A stretch of DNA of 64,000 bases from positions 67,033-131,032 of the forward strand of contig NZ_JAYSFE010000001.1 of assembly GCF_041913585.1 (NCBI RefSeq), read 5' to 3'. This document shows positions 20,039 through 29,006 of this stretch, one piece after another. Position 1 is the stretch's first letter. Every line of letters starts with the position of its first letter. The translations under genes were made by a program, and so were the position numbers. Source of the stretch: Stella sp. Lineage in GTDB: Bacteria > Pseudomonadota > Alphaproteobacteria > ATCC43930 > Allostellaceae. The notes under the pieces were generated by a model that saw only the letters and a program-made list of their open reading frames with translations, had not been told where the DNA came from and ran no database searches.

Positions 20039-21205
20039 GTGCCCCGCGGTTCCTATCTCTTCACCAGCGAGTCGGTCGCCGAAGGCCATCCCGACAAGGT
20101 CTGCGACCGGATTTCCGACGCGATCGTCGATCTCTATCTCGGCCACGACCCCCAGGCGCGGGTCGCCGTCGAGACGCTCGCGACGACCAACCACATCGTG
20201 CTCGCGGGCGAGGTGCGCGGCCCCGCCGCGATCACGCCCGCGACGCTCGAGGAGACGGCGCGGGCCGCGGTCCGGGACATCGGATACGAGCAGGAGGGCT
20301 TCCACTGGAAGCACGCCAAGGTCGATGTCCTCGTCCATGCCCAGTCGGCCGACATCGCGGTCGGCGTCGATGCCGCCGGGAACAAGGACGAGGGTGCCGG
20401 CGACCAGGGCATCATGTTCGGCTATGCCTGCCGCGAGACCGAGACCCTGATGCCGGCGCCGATCCACTATGCGCACGCCATCCTGCGGTCGCTGGCCGAG
20501 GCGCGCCATTCGGGCGCGGCACCCGGCCTCGGGCCCGACGCCAAGAGCCAGGTGACCCTGCTCTACGAGAACGGGCGGCCGGTCCGCGCCACCTCGATCG
20601 TCGTCTCGACGCAGCACGCCGCCCATCTCGAGCAGGCGGAGGTGCGCGAGATCGTCCGCCCGCACGTCCTGAACTGCCTGCCGAAGGGCTGGATGTGCAG
20701 CGAGGACGAGTTCTACGTGAACCCGACCGGCCGCTTCGTCATCGGCGGCCCGGACGGCGACTGCGGCCTGACCGGGCGCAAGATCATCGTCGACACCTAC
20801 GGCGGCGCGGCGCCGCACGGCGGTGGGGCCTTCTCGGGCAAGGATCCGACCAAGGTCGACCGTTCGGCGGCCTACGCCGCCCGCTACCTGGCGAAGAACG
20901 TCGTCGCCGCCGGCCTCGCCGACCGCTGCGCCATCCAGGTGTCCTACGCGATCGGCGTCTCCAAGCCGCTGTCCGTCTATGTCGACACCTACGGCACCGG
21001 CATGGAGCACGAGGAACGTCTGGCCACCATCCTGCCTTCCATCGTCGACCTGTCGCCGCGCGGCATCCGGGAGCGCCTGGGCCTCAACCGCCCGATCTAT
21101 GCCCGGACGGCCGCCTACGGGCATTTCGGGCGGGCGCCCGATCCCGACGGCGGCTTCTCGTGGGAGCGCCTCGACCTGGTGGAGGCGATCAAGGGAGCGT
21201 TGTGA
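20039..21205 (+). CDS. metK: S-adenosylmethionine synthase
   Basis: [43 protein letters not shown]. Confidence 0.98.
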
Positions 21206-21360
21206 TGGCGAATGCGCTGCGCGGTGCCCTGCTGCTGGTCCTGACGTTCGCCGCCATGTCCGGCGCGGCCTGCACGCCGCGCTTCGACATGGTGGGCGAG
21301 GAGGCGACCGGCGACCCGGTCGCCAACAAGCGGGTCGGCCAGGAGCCGCGGGCGCAGTAG
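21205..21360 (+). CDS. Hypothetical small lipoprotein (51 aa)
   Basis: ATG overlaps metK TGA, GGAG about 7 nt upstream; basic/hydrophobic signal ending GAA-C23. Confidence 0.6.
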   Translation: MANALRGALLLVLTFAAMSGAACTPRFDMVGEEATGDPVANKRVGQEPRAQ

Positions 21361-21425
21361 CCCCCATCCAGCGATTCCGCCGGCCACGGCGGCCGGCGCC
21401 GTCTGCAGCGATACCGGAGAAAGCG

Positions 21426-22508
21426 ATGATTCGCGCCCTTCCCTCGATCGCGCTCGGTGGCCTCGCCGTCCTGCTGGCCGCCTGCGGGACGCCGCCCCCG
21501 ACCGGCGATCTCACGGGCGAGGCGTCGGTCACGCTCGATCCGGCGACACAGCAGGCGCGGTGGCGGACGCCCGGCTACGTCCCGGCCTCGTCCGGCGTAT
21601 CGGGCGAGGGCATCCACACGATCCGCTTCGCCGCTGTCGTCGGCGACGCGCCGTTCCGTTGTGGCGCCAGCTACGGCGGCATCGGCGTCACCGGCTCGAC
21701 CATCCTCCCGACCGATTTCCGCTTCTTCGTGTCGGAGGTCGCACTGATCGACGAGGCCGGCCGCCAGGTGCCGATGAACCTCGCCCAGGACGGGCGCTGG
21801 CAGCACCAGAACGTCGCCCTGCTCGATTTCGAAGACGGTCAGGGGCCGTGTGCCGGGGGCACGCCGGACCTGCGGCAGTCGGTCACCGGCGCGGTGCCTT
21901 ATGGCCGCTATCGCGGCATCGCCTTCACGCTCGGCGTTCCCGCCCCGCTCAATGTCGGCGCGCCGGCGCTCCCGGCATCGCCGCTCAACGATCCGAACCT
22001 GGCGTGGCCCGCCCCGGGGGGATTCCGCTTCCTCAAGCTCGACATGGCGACCTCCGGCCAGCCGCTCGGTTCCTACGGGGTGGTTCCCTCGACCGTGCCG
22101 GCGCCGCTGCCCGCCTATCCGGGGACGTTTGCCTATCCCGTCATTCCCGCCTACCCGACCGTGACGGGGCCCGTCGGCGCGCTGCCCTACGGGTTCCCGG
22201 TGCATATCGGCGGGGCCGAGTGCACGGGCTACGGCCCGGGCCCCTATACCCCGCCCGGCTGCGGCTTTCCGACCCGCCTCCGCGTCACCCTGCCGGAGTT
22301 CGACACCGACCGGAACGTCGTCGTCGCCGATCTGCGCGCCCTTCTCGTGACGTCCAACGTCGACGTCAACACGCCCGGGACGCCGGCTGGCTGCCAGTCG
22401 ACCTACGGCGACCCGGACTGCGCCGGCGTGGCGGCGATGCTGGGCCTCGCCATGCCGGGGGGCTACACGCCGCCGCAATCCGTCTTCCGGGTCGGCGTCC
22501 AGCCCTGA
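21426..22508 (+). CDS. Divergent MbnP-family (TIGR04052-like) lipoprotein
   Basis: Lipobox LAAC20; IRFAAVVG..C, DFRFFVS, QDGRWQ..VALLDFEDG.GPC, FTLGVP, SPLN, HIGG..C, GC.S..DPDC. Confidence 0.85.
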   Translation: MIRALPSIALGGLAVLLAACGTPPPTGDLTGEASVTLDPATQQARWRTPGYVPASSGVSGEGIHTIRFAAVVGDAPFRCGASYGGIGVTGSTILPTDFRFFVSEVALIDEAGRQVPMNLAQDGRWQHQNVALLDFEDGQGPCAGGTPDLRQSVTGAVPYGRYRGIAFTLGVPAPLNVGAPALPASPLNDPNLAWPAPGGFRFLKLDMATSGQPLGSYGVVPSTVPAPLPAYPGTFAYPVIPAYPTVTGPVGALPYGFPVHIGGAECTGYGPGPYTPPGCGFPTRLRVTLPEFDTDRNVVVADLRALLVTSNVDVNTPGTPAGCQSTYGDPDCAGVAAMLGLAMPGGYTPPQSVFRVGVQP

Positions 22509-22520
22509 CCGGGGTCGCCG

Positions 22521-24485
22521 TCAGATCGCCGGGTGGACGACGCGCAGGCCCGGCAGTCCGACGCAGATATGGCCCATGTCGCGCGCCAGCGCGGCCAGCC
22601 CCTCGGTCTCGAGGTAGCCGCGGTAGGGGGCGGCCGGAAACACCAGCCCGTCGCGGTGGAGATCGCCGCGCACCAGCAGGACCGTGCCACCGACGCCATG
22701 GACCTCGACCGGCCCGGCGTCGGCCGGGAAATCGCCAAGGTGGCGCCGGCCGACCGGATGGAGCGGCAGGCAGACGCCGTCGGCCAGGTTTCGCGGATCC
22801 TCCAGCGGCGCGCCGTCCGCACCCGCCGGCAGGACGAACGTGTTGAGGTCGTAGGTCCGCCCGTCGGGCAGCACGCAGTGCGGCACGACGACGTCGTGGC
22901 CGGCGGCGACAAGCCGCTCGACGAGGTCGGGCGGATAGTCGCAGACATCGGCGTCGATCCAGAGCACCCAGTCCTCGTCCCGGAGCGCGGCGGAGAGCAG
23001 GCGGTTGCGGGACCGGGCGAGCGTCGCGCGGCGCTCGCGCTGGACGCTCGCCTGGTAGCGCGGGCCGGGCGGCAGCCGGTAGCCGAAATCGTGCCGCACC
23101 ATGGTCACCCGCCGGAAGCGCGCCTCGAGCATGGGGCGCCGCGCCTGCAGACGGCCCCAGGTGTCGTCGGTGCTGTCGCTGTCGAGCAGACCGATCGACA
23201 GGCGTGCGGGATCGAGGTCCAGCCGCTCGAGCAATGCGAAATAGCGGTCGAGGTAGCGGGCCGCATTCTTGACCGGGGTCGCCACCAGGATCGACGGCCC
23301 GTCGGGCCGTCCGGCCGCTGCCGGCCGCGCCGGTGCCGGCGCAGCGATCCGTCCCTCGGCCTCCAGGAGCGCGAGGCGGGCGGCGATGCGGGCACCCACG
23401 GCTTCGGGCGCCAGGAGCTCGCGGACCTGCCGCGCGCCCCGCGCGGCGCGGGCCTGGACCCGCTCCGGATGCGCCAGCACCTGCCGCATCAGGTCGGCGG
23501 CGTGGGTGATGCTCGCCTCGGCCCATCGGACGCCCCGGCGGAAGGGCGGGCTGTCCTTGGCCAGGGCGACCAGATCGTAGGCGACGAGCCCGGCCGTGGC
23601 CGGCGACATGAAGTCGAGGTTGCCGGAATGGGCGGTCGCGATCACCGGCCGGCCCGCCGCCATCGCCTCCGCCATCGCCAGCCCGAGCGCCTCGGCGCGG
23701 TGCAGCGAGACGAAGCAGCCGCACGCCCGCACCAGCGCCGCCATCTCGGCATCGGACATGGTGCCGTTCAGGACATGGACGTCCGGCCGGCCGGGGGCCA
23801 GGCGTTCCAGCGCCATGCGGTCGCGGGGCAGCAGCCCGCGCGTCTTCAGCACGAGGCGGACCTGGGGTTGCGGTCGCGGGAAGGCGGCCAGGAAGGCCCG
23901 GATCACGCCCGCCGGATTCTTGCGGTCGAGATTGCTGCGGGCGTCGAAGACGGAAAGGAACGTGAACGGACCCGGCGGAAGGCCGAAGCGCTCGAGGTCC
24001 AAGTCCGCGTGCGCCGGCGTTGGTGCCAGGGCCGGCGGCAGCGGCAGGACCGGAACGTCGACGAACGGCGCCACGCAGGCGGCGCCATAGGCGCTGGGCG
24101 TCCAGATCTCGTCGAACAGCGGGCACATGCGGCGCCATGCCTCGGGCAGCCCGTCCGGGGCTTCCCAGCTCCAGTAGCCGATCGTGTAGGCGCGACAGCC
24201 GGCGCTGGGACCGGGATAGGTGCCGTCGCCGAGGCAGCGGCGGAGGACGTCCGGGTTGGTGGCGACGAGCGCGACCGGCCGGCCGAGCTCGCTGGCGGTC
24301 GGCAGCGGCGACCGCGAACTGCCGGAGGCGGGCCAGGGCAGGTCGACCATCGTCGCGGGCAGCCCGGCGGCGGCGATGGCCGCGGCGAAGCCGCGGCCGG
24401 CCGACCCGAGCCCGATCGGCGCGGACAGGTGCGCGTAGAGCGCGAGCCCGGGGAGCGCGGGTCCGGGAGGGGCGGGTCCGGGCAT
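22521..24485 (-). CDS. Two-domain glycosyltransferase: GT4 (N-term) + Anp1/Mnn9 GT62-like (C-term)
   Basis: GT4: IGYWSWE, FDEIWTPS, RKNP, HRAEALGLAMAE (ExxxxxxxE); GT62-like: RERRATLARSRN, WVLWIDADV, YDLN, GVGG..LVRGDLHRDG..FP, ETEGLA. Confidence 0.85.
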   Translation of the reverse strand: MPGPAPPGPALPGLALYAHLSAPIGLGSAGRGFAAAIAAAGLPATMVDLPWPASGSSRSPLPTASELGRPVALVATNPDVLRRCLGDGTYPGPSAGCRAYTIGYWSWEAPDGLPEAWRRMCPLFDEIWTPSAYGAACVAPFVDVPVLPLPPALAPTPAHADLDLERFGLPPGPFTFLSVFDARSNLDRKNPAGVIRAFLAAFPRPQPQVRLVLKTRGLLPRDRMALERLAPGRPDVHVLNGTMSDAEMAALVRACGCFVSLHRAEALGLAMAEAMAAGRPVIATAHSGNLDFMSPATAGLVAYDLVALAKDSPPFRRGVRWAEASITHAADLMRQVLAHPERVQARAARGARQVRELLAPEAVGARIAARLALLEAEGRIAAPAPARPAAAGRPDGPSILVATPVKNAARYLDRYFALLERLDLDPARLSIGLLDSDSTDDTWGRLQARRPMLEARFRRVTMVRHDFGYRLPPGPRYQASVQRERRATLARSRNRLLSAALRDEDWVLWIDADVCDYPPDLVERLVAAGHDVVVPHCVLPDGRTYDLNTFVLPAGADGAPLEDPRNLADGVCLPLHPVGRRHLGDFPADAGPVEVHGVGGTVLLVRGDLHRDGLVFPAAPYRGYLETEGLAALARDMGHICVGLPGLRVVHPAI

Positions 24486-24496
24486 CGGGGGAACCG

Positions 24497-26290
24497 TCAG
24501 CGGCGGCCGAACAGGCGCTCGATGTCGGCCCGCTTCAACTCGACATAGGTCGGCCGGCCATGGTTGCACTGGCCGCTGTTCGGCGTCGCCTCCATCTGGC
24601 GCAGCAGCGCGTTCATCTCGTCCGCCGACAGCCGGCGACCGGCCCGCACGCTGCCATGGCAGGCGAGCGTGCCCGACACCTGATCGAGGCGCTCGCGCAG
24701 CGAGAAGGTCTGGCCGAGTTCGGCCAGTTCGTCGGCGAGGTCGCGGATCAGCCCCGGAACGTCGGTGTCGCCCAGCATGGCGGGGATCTCGCGCACGACG
24801 ACCGCGCCCGGTCCGAACCCCTCGACGACGAGACCGAGCTCGGCCAGTTCGGCGCCGCGCCGGACCAGCCGGTCCGTCGCCGCCGCCTCCAGCTCGACCA
24901 CGACCGGCAGCAGCAGCGTCTGGCGTCCGACCCCGCTCGCGGCGAGCGCCGCCTTCATGCGCTCGTGGACGAGACGCTCGTGCGCCGCGTGCTGGTCGAC
25001 CAGGACCAGGCCGTCCGCGGTCTCGGCGACGATGTAGGTGTTGAAGAGCTGCCCGCGGGCGGCCCCGAGCGGGCGGTCCGCGGATGGGGCGGCGGTGGCC
25101 GCCGCCACCGGTGCGGCCGGCGGCAGGTCGAGACCGAGGCGCGGGCCGGTGCCGTCGGGGGCCTGGAAGGCCGCAAGCGCCTCGGCCAGGCCGGGCCGGT
25201 ACGGCGCAGCCGGCGGGCCGGGCGCCCCCGGCGTCGTCGCCATCGGTCGGAAGGCGCCGAGGGCGGCCGCGCTGACGGTGGTGCTGGCGCGGTGGCCGGC
25301 GGCGGCGAGCGCATGCCTGAGCGCGCCGACCACGAGGCCGCGGACCAGGCCGCTGTCGCGGAACCGCACCTCGGTCTTGGCCGGGTGGACGTTGACGTCG
25401 ACGCCGTCGGCGGGGACATCGAGGAAGAGCGCCACCGCCGGGTGCCGGTCGCGGGCGAGGACGTCGGCATAGGCGCCGCGCACGGCACCGAAGAGGAGCC
25501 TGTCGCGCACCGGCCGGCCGTTGACGAAGAGGTACTGCTCCGCCGACGTCGCCCGGTGATAGGTCGGCAGGCCGGCGAAGCCGGAGAGCCGCAGGCCTTC
25601 GCGCTCGGCGGCGACCGTCAGCGCGTTGTCGCGGAAGCCCTGGCCCAGCACCTGGCCCAGCCGGGCGAGCCGGCCCTCGGGGCCGTCGCCGCCGGCGGCG
25701 AGGCGCAGCAGGGCACGGCCGTCCTCGGCGACCGCGAAGGCGACGCCGGGGTGGGCCATCGCCAGACGGCGGACGGCGTCCAGCGCGTGCTCGCGCTCGG
25801 TCCTGGGCGACTTCAGGAACTTGAGGCGGGCGGGCGTCGCGTAGAAGAGGTCGCGGACCTCGACCCGGGTGCCCGGCGGATGGGCGGCCGGCCGGGGCGG
25901 CGTCTTGTCGCCGCCTTCGACGCGGATCGTCCACGCCTGGTCGGCGCCGGGCGGCCGGCTGGTGATCGCGAGCCGCGCGACCGCCCCGATCGACGGCAGG
26001 GCCTCGCCGCGAAATCCCAGCGTCGAGACCCGTTCGAGGTCGTCGTCCGGGAGTTTTGAGGTGGCATGGCGCTCGACCGCCAGCTCGAGGTCGGCCGGCT
26101 GCATGCCGCTGCCGTCGTCGACGACGACGATCAGCGACTGGCCGCCGTCGCCGAGCGTCACCGAGACCTGGCGGGCGCCGGCGTCGAGCGCGTTCTCGAC
26201 CAGTTCCTTGACCGCCGCGGCCGGCCGCTCGATCACCTCCCCCGCGGCGATGCGGTTGACGACGACCGACGGCAGCAGGCGGACGGCCAT
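24497..26290 (-). CDS. mutL: DNA mismatch repair protein MutL
   Basis: [43 protein letters not shown]. Confidence 0.98.
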
Positions 26291-26309
26291 GGGGCGGCGG
26301 TCCCGGCCC

Positions 26310-27608
26310 TCAGGACTGGGCGAGATAGTCGCGGGCGAGCTTCTTGCCCTCTTCCACCGCCGGCTGGTCGAAGGCGTCGATGCCGAGGAGGTCGGCGGCG
26401 AAGATCGTTTCCAGCATGAAATGCATGAAGAGCGCCCCGAGCGCGCGCTCGTCGAGACGCTCCAGACGGATGACCCGGGTCGGCCGGCCGTTGCGGATCA
26501 GCGTCTCCGCCGTCGCCCGCTGCTCGGCGTCGAGCAGGTCGCCCATGCGCCGGCCCTTGAGGTAGCCGAGCGCCGGGTCGCGGGCGAAGGTCGCCGCCGC
26601 CCGATCGCCCTTGCCGGCGACCGCCAGCGTGACCAGGGTGAAGATCTTGTCGGCCGGGCCGGCGAGGTAGAGCTGGAGCTGGCTGTGCTGGTCGACCGTG
26701 CCCATGGCGCGGATCGGCGTCGTCCCGTGGCCGCCCTTGCCCAGGCTCTCCGCCCAGAGCTGGCGGAACCACAGCCCGAAATGGGCCAGCCGGTCGACAT
26801 AGGGCATGAGGACCGTGGTCGCCCGCCCGGCCGCGGCATGGGCGAGATTGACGGCGGCGCCGCGCAGCGGCGCGCAATCCTCCGGCCGTTCCGCCGCCAG
26901 CGCGGCATCGAGCACGGCCGCGGCGCCGGCACGGACCCGGGCAGCGTCGAGCCCGGCGATCAGCGTCGGCAGCAGGCCGACCAGCGACAGCACCGAGAAG
27001 CGGCCGCCGACGCCGGGATCGTGGTCGAGGATGGTGGCGCCGAGGCGGGTCGCGAGCCGCCGCAGCGGATTGTCGGCGGGCTCGGTGACGACCACCAGGC
27101 GCTCCGCCACGCCCATGCGGCCGACCGCCTTCTCCAGCCGCGGCAGCAGGGTCAGGAGCTGCATCAGCGTCTCGGCGGTGCCGCCGGACTTGGAGATGGC
27201 GAGGATGCGGGTACGGGCGAAGTCGACGCGGTCGGCGAGTGCCGCGAAGGTCGCGGGGTCGATATTGTCGAGGAAGCGGATGCGGGGCGTCCCCTTGGGC
27301 GGGCCGAAGCCCTGGTCCGCCAGCGCGTTGATGGTCTGGCCGCCAAGGCTCGATCCGCCGGTACCCAGCACCAGCACGTCCGCGGTCTTGCGGCGCATGG
27401 CCCGCGCCAGCGTCTCCAGCCCCGGCAGGTCGTCGCGCCGGCCGGGCAGGGCGAGCAGCGGCAGCGTGCCCTCCGCCCGCATCGCCCGGACCCGCGCCAG
27501 GGCACCGCCCTTGCCGGCCAGACCGGCGGCGAAGGCGGCGGCATCGATGCCCGACCGGCCGACGCGAGCGGCGAAGAGCGCGGAATCGTCGATGGTGAAG
27601 GGGATCAT
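26310..27608 (-). CDS. pgi: Glucose-6-phosphate isomerase (short, 432-aa type)
   Basis: [52 protein letters not shown]. Confidence 0.93.
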
Positions 27609-27644
27609 GGCGGCGGGTCCGGCCTCTGTCGTCGATCGTCCGTC

Positions 27645-29006
27645 TCAGGGGGCGGCGGGCGCGTCGCGCGTCGCCGCCAGGTTCTCCGGCTCGCCGACGA
27701 CCGTGAAGAGAAGACGGGCCGGGTCGAAGAGCCGCTGGGCCGCGCGCCTGGCATCGGCGAGCGTCACGCGCTGGAACCGCTCGGCCCGCCGGTCCATGTA
27801 GTCGATGCCGAGCCCGTCGCGCTGCAGGCTGACCAGGAAGCCGGCGATCCGGCCCGTCGAATCGAGGTTGAGGGCGAAGGAATCGATGACCGAGCGCTTG
27901 GCGTTGTCGAGCTCGGCCGCGGTCGGCCCCTCGGCGGCCATGCGCGCGAACTCGCTGCGGATCATCGCGATCGAACGCGCGACCGCGGCGTTGGCGGTGC
28001 CGACGCTGCCCTGCACCACCCCGGTCGCGTCGAGCGTGCCGAGGCCGGTGGAAACCGAATAGGCGAGCCCCGCCTTCTCCCGCACCTCGCGCATCAGACG
28101 GGCGCTGAAGCCGCCGCCGCCGAGGATGTAGTTCACGAGGTGCGCCGCCTCGAAGTCGGGATCGCTGCGCTTCAGGCCGGGGGCGCCGAAGACGACGACG
28201 CTCTGGTTCTGCTGGCGCCGCACCACCAGGACGTCGCCGGCCCCGGCCGCGGCCACCGCCGGCACGGGCGCGAGCGCGGCCTTCGCCGGCAGGGTCCCGA
28301 GCAGCGCATCGAGCAGGGGCGCCAGCGCGGCGCCGTCGATGTCGCCGACCACCCCGATCTTGACCCCGTCCCTTGCCACCTGCGCCCGCCAGACGGCACG
28401 GAGGTCGTCGGCGCCGATGGCGGCGATGCTGGCCCGGGTGCCGTCGCCCGTGCGGCCGTAGGGATGGTCGGGAAAGGCCGCGCGCCACCACAGGTCGCGG
28501 GCGATGTCCCCGGGCGAAGTCGCGGCCCGGGCGATCGCGGAAAGCTGGCGCTCCTTGGCGCGGTCGATGGCATCGGCGTCGAAGCGCGGCTGCGTCAGGG
28601 CCAGCCGGAACATCGCCAGCGCGTCCTCGCGATAGCGCGTCAGGGTGCGGAACGAGACGTTCAGCGAGTCGCGGCCGGCGGAGACCGACAGGTTGGTCGC
28701 CAAGTCCTCCAGCCGGGCCCGGAACGTTTCGGCGTCGAATTCGCCGGCGCCCTCGGTCAGGAGCTGGGCCATCAGGTCGCTGGCCCCCTCCCTGCCGGCG
28801 CGGTCCTGGGCGGTGCCGCCCGGAAAGGAGAGGCTGATCGCGAGGATGGGCAGCGACCGGTCGGGCAGGAACCAGGCCTCGATGCCGCCGGGGCTGACGA
28901 TGCGCTGGACGGCCGGCGCCCGGGCCGGCTGCGTCTGCTGGGCGAGCACCGCCGGTGCGGCCACCGCCAGCAGCAGCAGAACGAGCAGATGGCGGAGCCT
29001 CGGCAT
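27645..29006 (-). CDS. M16B peptidase, non-catalytic partner subunit
   Basis: Signal peptide; SPGGIEAW, HPYG, ILGGGGFSARL, REKAGLAYSV; no HxxEH. Confidence 0.9.
   Translation of the reverse strand: MPRLRHLLVLLLLAVAAPAVLAQQTQPARAPAVQRIVSPGGIEAWFLPDRSLPILAISLSFPGGTAQDRAGREGASDLMAQLLTEGAGEFDAETFRARLEDLATNLSVSAGRDSLNVSFRTLTRYREDALAMFRLALTQPRFDADAIDRAKERQLSAIARAATSPGDIARDLWWRAAFPDHPYGRTGDGTRASIAAIGADDLRAVWRAQVARDGVKIGVVGDIDGAALAPLLDALLGTLPAKAALAPVPAVAAAGAGDVLVVRRQQNQSVVVFGAPGLKRSDPDFEAAHLVNYILGGGGFSARLMREVREKAGLAYSVSTGLGTLDATGVVQGSVGTANAAVARSIAMIRSEFARMAAEGPTAAELDNAKRSVIDSFALNLDSTGRIAGFLVSLQRDGLGIDYMDRRAERFQRVTLADARRAAQRLFDPARLLFTVVGEPENLAATRDAPAAP

What the first reader, a model, noticed from the sequence alone, without database searches (positions are those of the whole stretch)
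22521..24485. Bacterial GT4 fused to a fungal-type Mnn9/Anp1 (GT62) mannosyltransferase-like domain
The C-terminal ~255 aa follow yeast Mnn9 motifs in order as I recall them: RERRATLARSRN (KERRAAMALARN), WVLWIDADV (WVLWLDAD), YDLN (YDFN), GVGG..LVRGDLHRDG..FP (GVGG..LVKAEVHRDG..FP), ETEGLA..A..MG (ETEGFA.MA), GLP..VVH. The N-terminal GT-B domain keeps ExxxxxxxE. No TM anchor or signal is evident, so it is cytoplasmic. It lies 11 nt behind mutL with no polysaccharide cluster. It may be a self-contained two-linkage mannan/glycan polymerase; bacterial GT62-like enzymes are little characterised.
Basis: partly seen in the sequence, partly recalled or inferred. Interest (0 to 1): 0.65.

Follow-up and report, generated by a model that had tools for sequence, protein, structure and literature searches.

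The report
Split-off bacterial GT4–Mnn9-like glycosyltransferase
The gene after mutL does encode a soluble enzyme joining a GT4 sugar-adding domain to a domain related to yeast Mnn9. It belongs to a large, unstudied bacterial family, and here it looks like the detached back half of a five-module sugar-chain builder whose front half lies elsewhere in the genome.

Summary
The gene lies on the minus strand at 22521-24485 and encodes 654 aa. It starts 11 nt after mutL and ends 12 nt from a convergent MbnP-like gene. The C-terminal domain scores 144.6 bits on Pfam Anp1 (GT62) against 34.5 bits on GT2. Mnn9 (3zf8) is the best sequence and fold match. All tested Mnn9 catalytic residues are present and are invariant in 41-42 bacterial relatives. 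The N-terminal domain is a GT-B GT4 with EX7E. No membrane segment was found.

The interpretation needs revising.
- The domain is not fungal. It sits in a large bacterial clade that is sister to the eukaryotic GT62 clade, within a family of 1301 50%-identity clusters.
- The enzyme is probably not self-contained. Relatives are GT32(Och1-like)-GT2-(TPR/GT-D)-GT4-GT62 proteins, and in Azospirillum this is one roughly 1850-1960-aa ORF.
- This genome encodes the missing GT32-GT2-TPR-GT-D part as a separate 1254-aa protein, behind a cyanophycin-synthetase-like gene.
- In the genus, GT32 and GT4-GT62 are present together in 5 genomes and absent together in 2.

Most likely it supplies two retaining modules, probably mannosyl-adding, of a split cytoplasmic glycan assembly line. 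The acceptor is unknown. I call it a new variant of a known kind, of moderate interest.

The parts
22521..24485 (-). Whole gene: 654-aa GT4-GT62-like glycosyltransferase (stop codon 22521-22523)
   Evidence: Single open frame. GC3 of 0.87-0.95 in this frame. Pfam domains. Orthologues at the same site in 4 congeners.
23358..24446 (-). N-terminal GT4 (GT-B, retaining) domain, residues ~14-376
   Evidence: Glycos_transf_1 at 42.6 bits and Glyco_trans_1_4 at 44 bits. The AF2 model shows two Rossmann-like halves. Foldseek hits are 3oy2 (PBCV B736L), BshA, TreT, GlgM and MshA. The best profile hits are 2f9f WbaZ-1 'first mannosyl transferase' (3.5e-10) and 3oy2 (5.6e-8).
23667..23693 (-). GT4 EX7E motif, E265-E273 (EALGLAMAE)
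   Evidence: Read directly from the sequence. E265 is kept in 20 of 23 and E273 in 18 of 23 aligned GT4 relatives. K214 is kept in 22 of 24.
23301..23357 (-). Ala/Pro-rich interdomain linker, residues ~377-395
   Evidence: pLDDT is below 50 at residues 386-392, between two confidently folded domains.
22524..23300 (-). C-terminal Anp1/Mnn9-like (GT62-like, GT-A) domain, residues ~396-654
   Evidence: Pfam PF03452 at E=5e-42. Mnn9 3zf8 is the top match by sequence and by fold.
22947..22955 (-). DxD motif D511-A-D513, equivalent to ScMnn9 D236/D238
   Evidence: Alignment to 3zf8, whose chain index equals residue number minus 90 and which is the D236N crystal form. Residue roles are from PMC3787745. 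Invariant in 42 of 42 bacterial relatives.
22533..22535 (-). H651, equivalent to the Mn2+-ligand H389 of ScMnn9
   Evidence: Invariant in 42 of 42. Also aligned are R485/R486 (=R209/R210, 44 of 49), D546 (=D280, 41 of 41) and T627 (=T365, 41 of 42).
24486..24496 (-). 11-nt spacer between the mutL stop and the GT start, with no obvious Shine-Dalgarno sequence
   Evidence: Sequence cggttcccccg. Orthologues sit 1-3 nt after mutL in G002 and on contig L071. No promoter-like or terminator-like site was found in 21200-27800.
24497..26290 (-). mutL, the upstream co-oriented gene (context)
   Evidence: ORF and translation. 82-87% identical across the genus.
21426..22508 (+). Convergent MbnP-like lipoprotein gene, 12 nt from the GT stop (context)
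   Evidence: Pfam MbnP at 1.8e-25. Sequence at the junction. In G001 and G006 it directly follows mutL with no GT between.

Best explanation
The gene encodes a soluble, catalytically competent two-module retaining glycosyltransferase.

The C-terminal module is a bacterial member of the Mnn9/Anp1 (GT62) superfamily. It most likely uses a Mn2+-bound DxD (D511/D513) and His651 to transfer mannose from GDP-mannose in alpha linkage, possibly alpha-1,6 as in Mnn9. The N-terminal GT4 module adds a second alpha-linked hexose, probably also mannose.

The protein is not a stand-alone polymerase. It is the detached C-terminal half of a conserved bacterial multi-module glycan synthase with the order GT32(Och1-like)-GT2-(TPR/GT-D)-GT4-GT62. 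In this genus that gene is split. The front half is a 1254-aa protein encoded about 2 Mb away in the complete congener genome G002 (on another contig in this assembly), behind a cyanophycin-synthetase-like gene. The back half is co-oriented with and tightly packed behind mutL.

Together the two proteins would assemble a mannose-containing hetero-oligosaccharide or polymer on the cytoplasmic side, on an acceptor still unknown (lipid carrier, peptide/protein or polyamide).

Shown here: domain identity, fold, conserved catalytic residues, lack of a membrane anchor, the split/fused architecture, and co-presence/co-absence in the genus.

Inferred: donor sugar, linkage, physical or functional partnership, and product.

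My odds: domain identity 0.97; active enzyme 0.85; GDP-Man donor for the GT62 module 0.7; alpha-1,6 linkage 0.4; works with the 1254-aa partner 0.65.
For: Domain identity and active site:
- Pfam Anp1 gives 144.6 bits against 34.5 for GT2.
- Mnn9 is the top PDB hit by sequence, profile and fold. The AF2 model has pLDDT 91.4.
- The residues shown by mutagenesis to be essential in ScMnn9 are R209, D236, D280 and H389 (PMC3787745). They align to R485, D511, D546 and H651. The three other than R485 (D511, D546, H651) are invariant in 41-42 bacterial relatives; R485 is kept in 44 of 49.
- The GT4 module has EX7E and K214.

Fused relatives (Rosetta stone):
- P0013, P0010 and P0123 are GT32-GT2-GT4-GT62. 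P0127 (1767 aa) is GT32-GT2-GT-D-GT4-GT62.
- Azospirillum picis L002 has all five modules in one frame of a 1965-aa ORF. Azospirillum MAG L003 has them in an 1844-aa ORF.
- Of the 152 sequences classified (the nearest family representatives plus six added proteins), about 67 carry GT32 in the same polypeptide as GT62.
- On the tree, P0002's GT62 domain nests in a subclade dominated by GT32-GT2-GT4-GT62 proteins.

The separate partner in this genome:
- G000:C27 encodes a 1254-aa GT32-GT2-TPR-GT-D protein.
- Its first 500 aa are 43% identical to the N-terminus of P0013 (E=1e-132).
- Its GT32 module hits the five-module proteins best (50-54% identity).
- Across 68 fused proteins, similarity of GT32 to the partner tracks similarity of GT62 to P0002 (Spearman 0.49, p=2e-5).

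Co-occurrence in the genus:
- PF04488 (GT32) is found in exactly the five congeners that carry GT4-GT62. It is missing from the two that lack it.
- G001 keeps only GT2-TPR-GT-D at the partner locus. G006 has neither gene.

Mannose context:
- ManC (TIGR01479) is present in all 7 genomes.
- The N-terminus of P0013 hits the Och1 structure 9n3s.
- The best GT4 profile hits carry mannosyl-transferase names or bind GDP-mannose.
- A stand-alone GT62 subfamily in Devosia and others sits beside GT71 (Mnn2/Mnn5 family), GT10, a GDP-mannose-dehydratase-like gene and FkbM genes.
Against: - No biochemical data exist for any bacterial GT62-like protein, so donor and linkage rest on homology at 24-33% identity to Mnn9.
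- The Mnn9-specific beta-hairpin (I262-N283) is 9 residues shorter here, so acceptor handling may differ.
- The co-occurrence rests on only 7 related genomes. The two lacking genomes may reflect a single loss event.
- The partner is at a distant locus, and no physical interaction was tested.
- Eight of the 152 sequences classified (including this genus's own) are GT4-GT62 only, so a two-module enzyme could work alone.
- No exporter, lipid-carrier primase or acceptor gene is consistently linked in five examined contexts.
- The GT4 donor specificity cannot be read from sequence.
Confidence: 0.65

Rival explanations
1. This is a self-contained two-linkage mannan polymerase. The two domains alternate to build a homopolymer with two linkages, as the two GT4 modules of E. 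coli WbdA do, and need no other glycosyltransferase.
For: There are two intact retaining GT modules on one chain. The gene is an orphan with no other GT nearby. GT4-GT62-only proteins exist as a minority architecture, 8 of 152. ScMnn9 alone can extend mannose to mannotriose in vitro (PMC3787745).
Against: The nearest relatives outside the genus carry GT32-GT2 or GT32-GT2-TPR/GT-D in front. This genome has those modules as a separate protein that appears and disappears together with this gene. Some of the 8 two-module representatives are from this same genus. No wzm/wzt, primase or chain-terminator gene is linked.
Confidence: 0.15
2. The system glycosylates a peptide, protein or polyamide in the cytoplasm rather than a lipid-linked polysaccharide. 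The TPR region of the partner recruits the substrate. The candidate substrate in this genus is the product of the co-transcribed cyanophycin-synthetase-like enzyme.
For: All modules are soluble and no exporter or lipid-carrier gene is linked. The partner carries TPR repeats and a GT-D-like domain. Its start overlaps the stop of a CphA-like gene (727 bits on NF010623, below the 877 cut-off) in four congeners. One relative, P0010, lies beside PqqD/ScmC-type peptide-maturation genes. Earlier scan notes raised peptide glycosylation for GT71-GT62 clusters; those notes are unchecked leads.
Against: The CphA-like neighbour is absent from every non-congeneric locus examined (no CphA hit in L002-L044). 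The PqqD context is a single case. There is no precedent for glycosylated cyanophycin. This reading is compatible with the best explanation and differs only in the acceptor.
Confidence: 0.15
3. The C-terminal domain is a generic GT2-type GT-A domain or an inactive remnant, and the Mnn9 resemblance is superficial.
For: There is a weak overlapping GT2 Pfam hit (34.5 bits). Procollagen galactosyltransferase GT-A domains also appear among the fold and sequence hits.
Against: Anp1 scores 110 bits higher than GT2. The profile-to-Mnn9 match is E=5.9e-42 over nearly the whole chain. Every Mnn9 catalytic residue is retained and invariant in the family. The coding signal is strong and the gene is conserved in 5 species.
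Confidence: 0.03
4. The gene is a recent horizontal acquisition from a fungus.
For: The family name and literature treat PF03452 as fungal-only (PMC5225481).
Against: The gene nests deep in a 125-row bacterial clade, separate (support 99) from the clade holding ScMnn9, a Geosiphon protein and a EukProt transcript. Its GC3 of about 0.9 matches the host. Its identity ranking among congeners follows that of mutL, which fits vertical descent with loss in two species.
Confidence: 0.02

Closest known systems
Saccharomyces cerevisiae Mnn9 (CAZy GT62, Pfam PF03452, PDB 3zf8), with paralogues Van1/Anp1 of mannan polymerases M-Pol I/II
   Same: GT-A fold. It is the best sequence, profile and fold match (E=5.9e-42; TM 0.71). 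The DxD motif, the Mn2+-ligand His, and the equivalents of R209/R210, D280 and T365 are all conserved.
   Different: Identity is only 24-33%. There is no N-terminal type-II membrane anchor, so the protein is cytoplasmic rather than Golgi-lumenal. The Mnn9 beta-hairpin is 9 residues shorter. The domain is fused to a GT4 domain. It lies in a bacterial sister clade, not inside the eukaryotic GT62 clade. Activity is untested.
Yeast outer-chain mannan pathway: Och1 (GT32) initiates, then M-Pol I/II (GT62, with Hoc1 GT32) extend, then Mnn2/Mnn5 (GT71) branch
   Same: The same families occur together in bacteria. GT32 and GT62 are on one polypeptide in about 67 of the 152 sequences classified. The GT32 module of P0013 hits the Och1 structure 9n3s. 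GT71 lies next to GT62 in 16 loci.
   Different: The bacterial versions are soluble fusions that also carry GT2, GT4 and GT-D modules. They act in the cytoplasm. The acceptor cannot be an N-glycan core of a secretory protein.
E. coli O9a WbdA and other multi-domain O-antigen glycosyltransferase polymerases of the ABC-transporter pathway (from my own knowledge of the field)
   Same: Soluble or peripheral multi-GT polypeptides in which each module makes one linkage of a repeat. GT4 mannosyltransferase modules use GDP-Man.
   Different: WbdA is GT4-GT4 and sits in an rfb cluster with wzm/wzt, wbdD and manB/manC. Here the module set is GT4+GT62 (plus GT32/GT2/GT-D in trans), and no transporter or terminator is linked.
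Azospirillum picis five-module ORF (L002 6014-11911) and metagenomic P0127/P0154
   Same: They have colinear counterparts of both proteins of this genome, in the order GT32-GT2-TPR/GT-D-GT4-GT62. Identities are 47-51%, 50-53%, 33-40%, 35-38% and 51-56% module by module.
   Different: There it is one polypeptide, while here it is two genes at distant loci. These proteins are also uncharacterised.
PBCV NY-2A B736L (PDB 3oy2/3oy7) and A. fulgidus WbaZ-1 (2f9f), GT4
   Same: They are the best structural and profile matches of the N-terminal domain. To my knowledge 3oy7 is the GDP-mannose complex.
   Different: Identity is 16% or less. Their physiological acceptors are unknown, so they say little about specificity.

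Membership tests
GT62 / Pfam PF03452 (Anp1/Mnn9/Van1) | Scores above the curated Pfam gathering threshold, and better than on other GT-A families | tested here: met
   144.6 bits against a 28.8 cut-off. GT2 scores 34.5 bits.
GT62 / Pfam PF03452 (Anp1/Mnn9/Van1) | GT-A fold with Mnn9 as nearest solved structure | tested here: met
   AF2 pLDDT 91.4. Foldseek rank 1 is 3zf8, with E=2.9e-17 and TMt 0.71.
GT62 / Pfam PF03452 (Anp1/Mnn9/Van1) | Catalytic set shown by mutagenesis in ScMnn9: R209, D236 (DxD), D280, H389 | tested here: met
   The equivalents are R485, D511/D513, D546 and H651. D511/D513, D546 and H651 are invariant in 41-42 of 42 relatives, and R485 is kept in 44 of 49.
GT62 / Pfam PF03452 (Anp1/Mnn9/Van1) | [quoted passage not shown] | tested here: inconclusive
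   The alignment shows a 9-residue deletion in this stretch while D280 is kept. The model has only short strands at residues 532-546.
GT62 / Pfam PF03452 (Anp1/Mnn9/Van1) | Type-II membrane anchor and Golgi-lumenal location | tested here: not met
   No hydrophobic segment was found (maximum Kyte-Doolittle 19-mer mean 1.54). The domain is the C-terminus of a soluble bacterial protein.
GT62 / Pfam PF03452 (Anp1/Mnn9/Van1) | Placement inside the clade of characterised (eukaryotic) GT62 enzymes | tested here: not met
   It lies in the 125-row bacterial clade, sister (support 99) to the 34-row clade with ScMnn9, Geosiphon and EukProt sequences. This is a FastTree tree of the 150 nearest representatives only.
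GT62 / Pfam PF03452 (Anp1/Mnn9/Van1) | Mn2+-dependent GDP-Man alpha-1,6-mannosyltransferase activity | not testable with these tools
   Needs an enzyme assay.
GT4 (retaining GT-B; Pfam PF00534/PF13692) | HMM above cut-off, GT-B two-Rossmann fold, EX7E motif | tested here: met
   42.6 and 44 bits against cut-offs 26.4 and 27. The fold matches are all GT4 structures. The motif is E265-X7-E273.
Bacterial GT32-GT2-(TPR/GT-D)-GT4-GT62 multi-module synthases (undescribed family) | GT4-GT62 tandem orthologous to the C-terminal half of the fused proteins | tested here: met
   41-50% identity over 85-100% of the query to P0008-P0015. It nests among them on the tree.
Bacterial GT32-GT2-(TPR/GT-D)-GT4-GT62 multi-module synthases (undescribed family) | N-terminal GT32-GT2 (and TPR/GT-D) modules on the same polypeptide | tested here: not met
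   They are absent from this ORF. They are present in trans as a 1254-aa protein on contig C27, so this is a split variant.
ABC-transporter-pathway O-antigen polymerases (WbdA type) | Located in a cluster with wzm/wzt, a primase or adaptor GT, and nucleotide-sugar genes | tested here: not met
   Only housekeeping genes lie within 10 kb on either side. The same holds for P0013 and P0012.

The most novel reading that the evidence does not exclude
The split five-module system (GT32-GT2-TPR-GT-D plus GT4-GT62) does not make a classical polysaccharide. Instead it builds a mannose-rich glycan on a cytoplasmic peptide or polyamide. In this genus the substrate would be the product of the divergent cyanophycin-synthetase-like enzyme whose stop codon overlaps the start of the front-half gene. 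That would be a glycosylated cyanophycin-like polymer, a kind of glycoconjugate not described so far.
Probability: 0.07. Interest if true: 0.85.

Novelty: new variant of a known kind. Interest (0 to 1): 0.5.

Why it matters
GT62 is treated in the literature as a fungal family. For example, PMC5225481 found PF03452 only in fungi when it sampled 52 bacteria. Here the domain belongs to a large bacterial sister clade whose members are usually fused to an Och1-type GT32 module. In another subfamily they sit beside GT71.

So the three families that build the yeast outer-chain mannan also travel together in bacteria, as soluble cytoplasmic enzymes. This bears on where the fungal mannan machinery came from. 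It also offers soluble, E. coli-expressible relatives for studying GT62 and GT32 chemistry.

The case in this window adds a natural experiment: the same assembly line is fused in Azospirillum and split in this genus. Module gain and loss between close species (five modules, three modules, or none) could be used to assign each module its linkage. No bacterial member has been characterised, so the product and its biological role are open.

Tried and rejected
- NCBIfam gave only weak sub-threshold GT4 hits and no equivalog.
- PADLOC gave nothing for this protein or its partner, so the 'GT4-conflict' Pfam hit is just general GT4 similarity.
- I looked for a conserved exporter, primase or acceptor next to fused relatives and found none. 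P0013 and P0012 lie among housekeeping genes beside PAS-histidine kinases. P0015 follows an MFS sugar transporter. P0010 lies near PqqD/ScmC and other GTs.
- The promoter/terminator scan found nothing in 21200-27800. It is uninformative in this 73% GC DNA.
I consider this unlikely. The lipoprotein is exported while the enzyme is cytoplasmic, and G001 and G006 keep MbnP without the GT.
- pgi next to mutL as a dedicated mannose-precursor supplier is not supported. The pgi-mutL arrangement is also kept in the two genomes lacking the GT.
- Recent transfer from fungi is rejected by the tree and by base composition.
Full report
**1. What is at the coordinates**

The finding gives 22521-24485 without a strand. 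The plus-strand translation is compositional junk. The minus strand gives one open 654-aa frame ending in a stop at 22521-22523.

The window is 73% GC. Third-position GC in this frame is 0.87-0.95 along the whole gene, as in the neighbouring genes, so the frame is truly coding.

mutL occupies 24497-26290 on the same strand. The junction reads TGA-cggttcccccg-ATG, an 11-nt spacer with no obvious ribosome-binding site.

At the other end the gene stops 12 nt from the stop of a convergent MbnP-like lipoprotein gene.

**2. Domain identity**

- *GT62-like domain by sequence.* Pfam places Anp1 (PF03452) on residues 396-619 at E=5e-42 and 144.6 bits (gathering cut-off 28.8). The overlapping GT2 hit reaches only 34.5 bits.
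- *Match to Mnn9.* The only strong solved-structure relative by sequence is yeast Mnn9, 3zf8, at E=2e-20. A profile of 53 relatives raises this to 5.9e-42 over almost the whole Mnn9 chain.
- *Fold.* An AlphaFold2 model built on that alignment is confident (mean pLDDT 91.4). It shows two folded domains joined by a disordered Ala/Pro linker at residues 386-392. Foldseek against the PDB ranks Mnn9 first (E=2.9e-17, TM 0.71 on the target). After it come GT4 enzymes that match the N-terminal domain: PBCV B736L, BshA, TreT, GlgM and MshA.
- *GT4 domain.* The N-terminal domain passes the Pfam GT4 models. It has EX7E at E265-E273 and the conserved K214.
- *Location.* No 19-residue window is hydrophobic enough for a membrane helix, so the protein is cytoplasmic.

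**3. Is the GT62-like domain likely to be active?**

The Mnn9 structure paper (PMC3787745) shows by mutagenesis that R209, D236 (first Asp of the DxD), D280 and H389 (the Mn2+ ligand) are each required. It also names R210, E305 and T365 as lining the pocket.

The crystallised chain is numbered residue minus 90 and carries D236N. This lets the alignment be read exactly:

| ScMnn9 | This protein | Conservation in bacterial relatives |
|---|---|---|
| R209/R210 | R485/R486 | 44 of 49 |
| D236/D238 | D511/D513 | 42 of 42 |
| D280 | D546 | 41 of 41 |
| T365 | T627 | 41 of 42 |
| H389 | H651 | 42 of 42 |

One difference stands out. The beta-hairpin that is special to Mnn9 (I262-N283) is 9 residues shorter here.

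**4. How common is this, and is it 'fungal'?**

A full HMMER scan of 1.84 billion cluster representatives with the C-terminal 270 aa found 1301 clusters at E<=1e-3 and 272 at E<=1e-30. Named genome hits span the following groups:
- Alphaproteobacteria: Azospirillum, Devosia, Kaistia, Bradyrhizobium, Mesorhizobium, Parvibaculum and Hyphomonas.
- Gammaproteobacteria.
- Actinomycetes.
- Acidobacteria.
- Anaerolineae.
- Cyanobacteria.
- Dadabacteria.

A tree of 159 domain sequences splits with support 99 into two clades.
- *A 34-row clade of single-domain proteins.* Many have an N-terminal hydrophobic anchor. It contains the ScMnn9 fragment, a Geosiphon (fungal) protein and a EukProt transcript.
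- *A 125-row clade holding the bacterial sequences.*

So the window's domain belongs to a bacterial sister group of eukaryotic GT62, not to the fungal family proper. The tree is FastTree on the 150 nearest representatives, so the root and the direction of any transfer are open. The literature I could search treats PF03452 as fungal-only (PMC5225481). I found no characterised bacterial member.

**5. The architecture: a detached half**

In the word-indexed search of 5.8 billion proteins, only about 14 clusters shared both domains.
- *Two-domain forms.* Five of the clusters (P0003-P0007, 51-68% identity) are two-domain proteins. The two whose contigs I fetched have the same mutL-GT-MbnP synteny, so they come from this genus.
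- *Longer forms.* The others are about 1110-1144 aa. Pfam shows them to be GT32 (PF04488, the Och1/Hoc1 family) - GT2 - GT4 - Anp1. P0127 (1767 aa) is GT32-GT2-GT-D-GT4-Anp1.
- *Azospirillum.* In Azospirillum picis all five modules lie in one frame of a 1965-aa ORF. An Azospirillum MAG has an 1844-aa ORF of the same design.
- *Counts among the 152 sequences classified (the nearest representatives plus six added proteins)*:

| Architecture | Number |
|---|---|
| GT32-GT2-GT62 | 32 |
| GT32-GT62 | 15 |
| GT32-GT2-GT4-GT62 | 8 |
| GT4-GT62 | 8 |
| Five-module | 2 |

- *Link to Och1.* The GT32 module of P0013 hits the new Och1 structure 9n3s directly.
- *Tree position.* The window's domain nests in the subclade dominated by GT32-GT2-GT4-GT62 proteins.

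**6. The missing half is in the same genome**

PF04488 has a single hit in this genome, on contig C27. It belongs to a 1254-aa protein with GT32, GT2, TPR repeats and a GT-D-like domain.
- Its first 500 aa are 43% identical to the N-terminus of P0013 (E=1e-132).
- Its best GT32 matches are the five-module proteins.
- Module by module, the Azospirillum MAG protein matches this genome's two proteins colinearly: GT32 50%, GT2 49%, TPR/GT-D 34%, GT4 39% and GT62 54%.
- Across 68 fused proteins, similarity to the partner's GT32 correlates with similarity to the window's GT62 (Spearman 0.49, p=2e-5). These data are not phylogenetically independent.

**7. Distribution in the genus**

The family holds seven species genomes.

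*The mutL locus.* The block ileS-lspA-lipoprotein-M16-M16-pgi-mutL-[GT]-MbnP-metK-HTH-lnt is conserved in all of them.
- G000, G002 and G005 carry GT4-GT62 after mutL.
- G003 carries a longer GT4-GT4-GT62 version.
- In G004 the gene is broken across two contigs.
- In G001 and G006, mutL is followed directly by the MbnP-like gene.

*GT32.* It is found in exactly the five genomes with GT4-GT62 and in neither of the other two.

*The partner locus, between an amidase gene and anmK.*
- G000, G002, G005 and G003 have the CphA-like gene followed by the GT32-GT2-TPR-GT-D gene.
- G001 has a shorter CphA-like gene and a protein lacking the GT32 part.
- G006 has neither.

*Rates of change.* The cassettes evolve faster than their flanks:

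| Gene or module | Identity across the genus |
|---|---|
| GT4 | 43-65% |
| GT62 | 59-63% |
| Partner | 45-66% |
| mutL | 78-86% |
| pgi | 83-90% |
| metK | 92-96% |

The identity ranking of the GT among congeners follows that of mutL. This fits vertical descent with loss in G001 and G006 rather than repeated import.

Seven genomes and perhaps one loss event make this suggestive, not conclusive.

**8. What it most likely does**

Both modules belong to retaining families. The GT62 module keeps the whole Mnn9 machinery for Mn2+-GDP-Man.

Several observations point to mannose:
- GDP-mannose synthesis (ManC, TIGR01479) is present in all seven genomes.
- The best profile hits for the GT4 module are proteins deposited as a mannosyltransferase (2f9f) and, to my knowledge, a GDP-mannose-binding viral GT4 (3oy2/3oy7).
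- In a related subfamily, stand-alone GT62 genes sit next to GT71 (the Mnn2/Mnn5 family) in 16 loci. In Devosia they also sit next to GT4, GT2-TPR, a GT10 fucosyltransferase, an FkbM methyltransferase and a GDP-mannose-dehydratase-like gene.

I therefore read the protein as the last two modules of a split assembly line. That line builds a mannose-containing glycan in the cytoplasm, and the GT62 module most likely adds alpha-linked (perhaps alpha-1,6) mannose.

The acceptor is not identified. No exporter, primase or carrier gene is consistently linked in five contexts, and PADLOC sees no defence link.

The TPR region, the overlapping cyanophycin-synthetase-like gene (727 bits on NF010623, below its 877 cut-off) and one PqqD/ScmC neighbourhood keep a peptide or polyamide acceptor open.

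**9. Comparison, novelty and verdict**

The protein works like a GT62 mannosyltransferase joined to a GT4.

For membership of the wider Anp1/Mnn9 superfamily it meets the sequence, fold and catalytic-residue tests. It fails the features of the characterised eukaryotic family: no membrane anchor, not inside the eukaryotic clade, and a shortened hairpin.

It resembles WbdA-type multi-module polymerases in logic but not in genomic setting.

Earlier notes of this scan independently report that bacterial GT62-like genes, GT32-GT62 fusions and GT71 neighbours are widespread. My results agree. This lowers the rarity of the domain itself.

Three things are particular here:
- the split of a five-module enzyme into two distant genes;
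- the joint presence and absence of the parts among close species;
- the link of the front half to a CphA-like gene.

I rate it a new variant of a known kind, with interest 0.5.

**10. Limits**

- The promoter/terminator scan was empty and uninformative.
- The organism's name could not be obtained.

Noticed in passing
G000 contig C27, locus L081 8650-15101 (outside the window): An 896-aa cyanophycin-synthetase-like gene scores 727 bits on NF010623, below the 877 cut-off. Its stop overlaps the start of the 1254-aa GT32-GT2-TPR-GT-D gene. The pair sits between an amidase gene and anmK, is kept in G002, G005 and G003, is reduced in G001 and is absent in G006. The flanks are 85-96% identical and the cassette 45-72%.
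   Followed up: partly
Whole genomes G000-G006: The first ~600 residues of the CphA-like protein hit 10-14 further places per genome in six of the seven genomes (G006 has 3 hits in all) at 28-41% identity, in long open frames. This may be a large paralogous family or a compositional artefact of 73% GC DNA. I did not resolve it.
   Followed up: no
L057 10323-12983 (G003, orthologous site after mutL): The G003 orthologue carries an extra N-terminal GT4-like region, making it GT4-GT4-GT62 (886+ aa, in an open frame of 1006 aa). So module number varies even at this one locus.
   Followed up: partly
L028 2491-12562 (Devosia sp. Root413D1) and 15 further loci: A stand-alone GT62-like gene lies divergent from a GT71 (PF11051, Mnn2/Mnn5 family) gene. 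Nearby are GT4, GT2-TPR, a GT10 fucosyltransferase, an FkbM methyltransferase, NTP_transf_5 and a GDP-mannose-dehydratase-like gene. It is a conserved cluster of 'yeast-type' mannosyltransferase families in bacteria.
   Followed up: partly
L089 3869-11102 (metagenomic contig with P0010): A GT32-GT2-GT4-GT62 gene is preceded by a small GT2 gene with an overlapping stop/start. Upstream and divergent from it are PqqD and HPr-kinase/ScmC-like genes and small ORFs. This looks like a peptide-maturation neighbourhood.
   Followed up: no
L087 8580-13327 and L088 740-5487: The P0015 four-module GT lies 54 nt downstream of a co-oriented MFS sugar-transporter gene on two independent contigs.
   Followed up: no
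G000 contig C163, locus L083: An 843-aa protein whose C-terminal GT4 is 39% identical to this GT4 domain lies next to a GDP-mannose-4,6-dehydratase-like gene and two RTX-repeat proteins. It may be a separate GDP-sugar glycan locus.
   Followed up: no
window 22509-22520 and 24486-24496: The GT gene is wedged in with only 12 nt to the convergent MbnP-like stop and 11 nt to the mutL stop. There is no hairpin terminator between the convergent genes. In G001 and G006, which lack the GT, the mutL-MbnP gap is 38-53 nt.
   Followed up: partly
L068 and L070 (contexts of P0013 and P0012): In both cases a PAS-HisKA sensor kinase gene lies immediately upstream of the four-module GT gene, divergent in one and co-oriented in the other. 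It may be coincidence.
   Followed up: no
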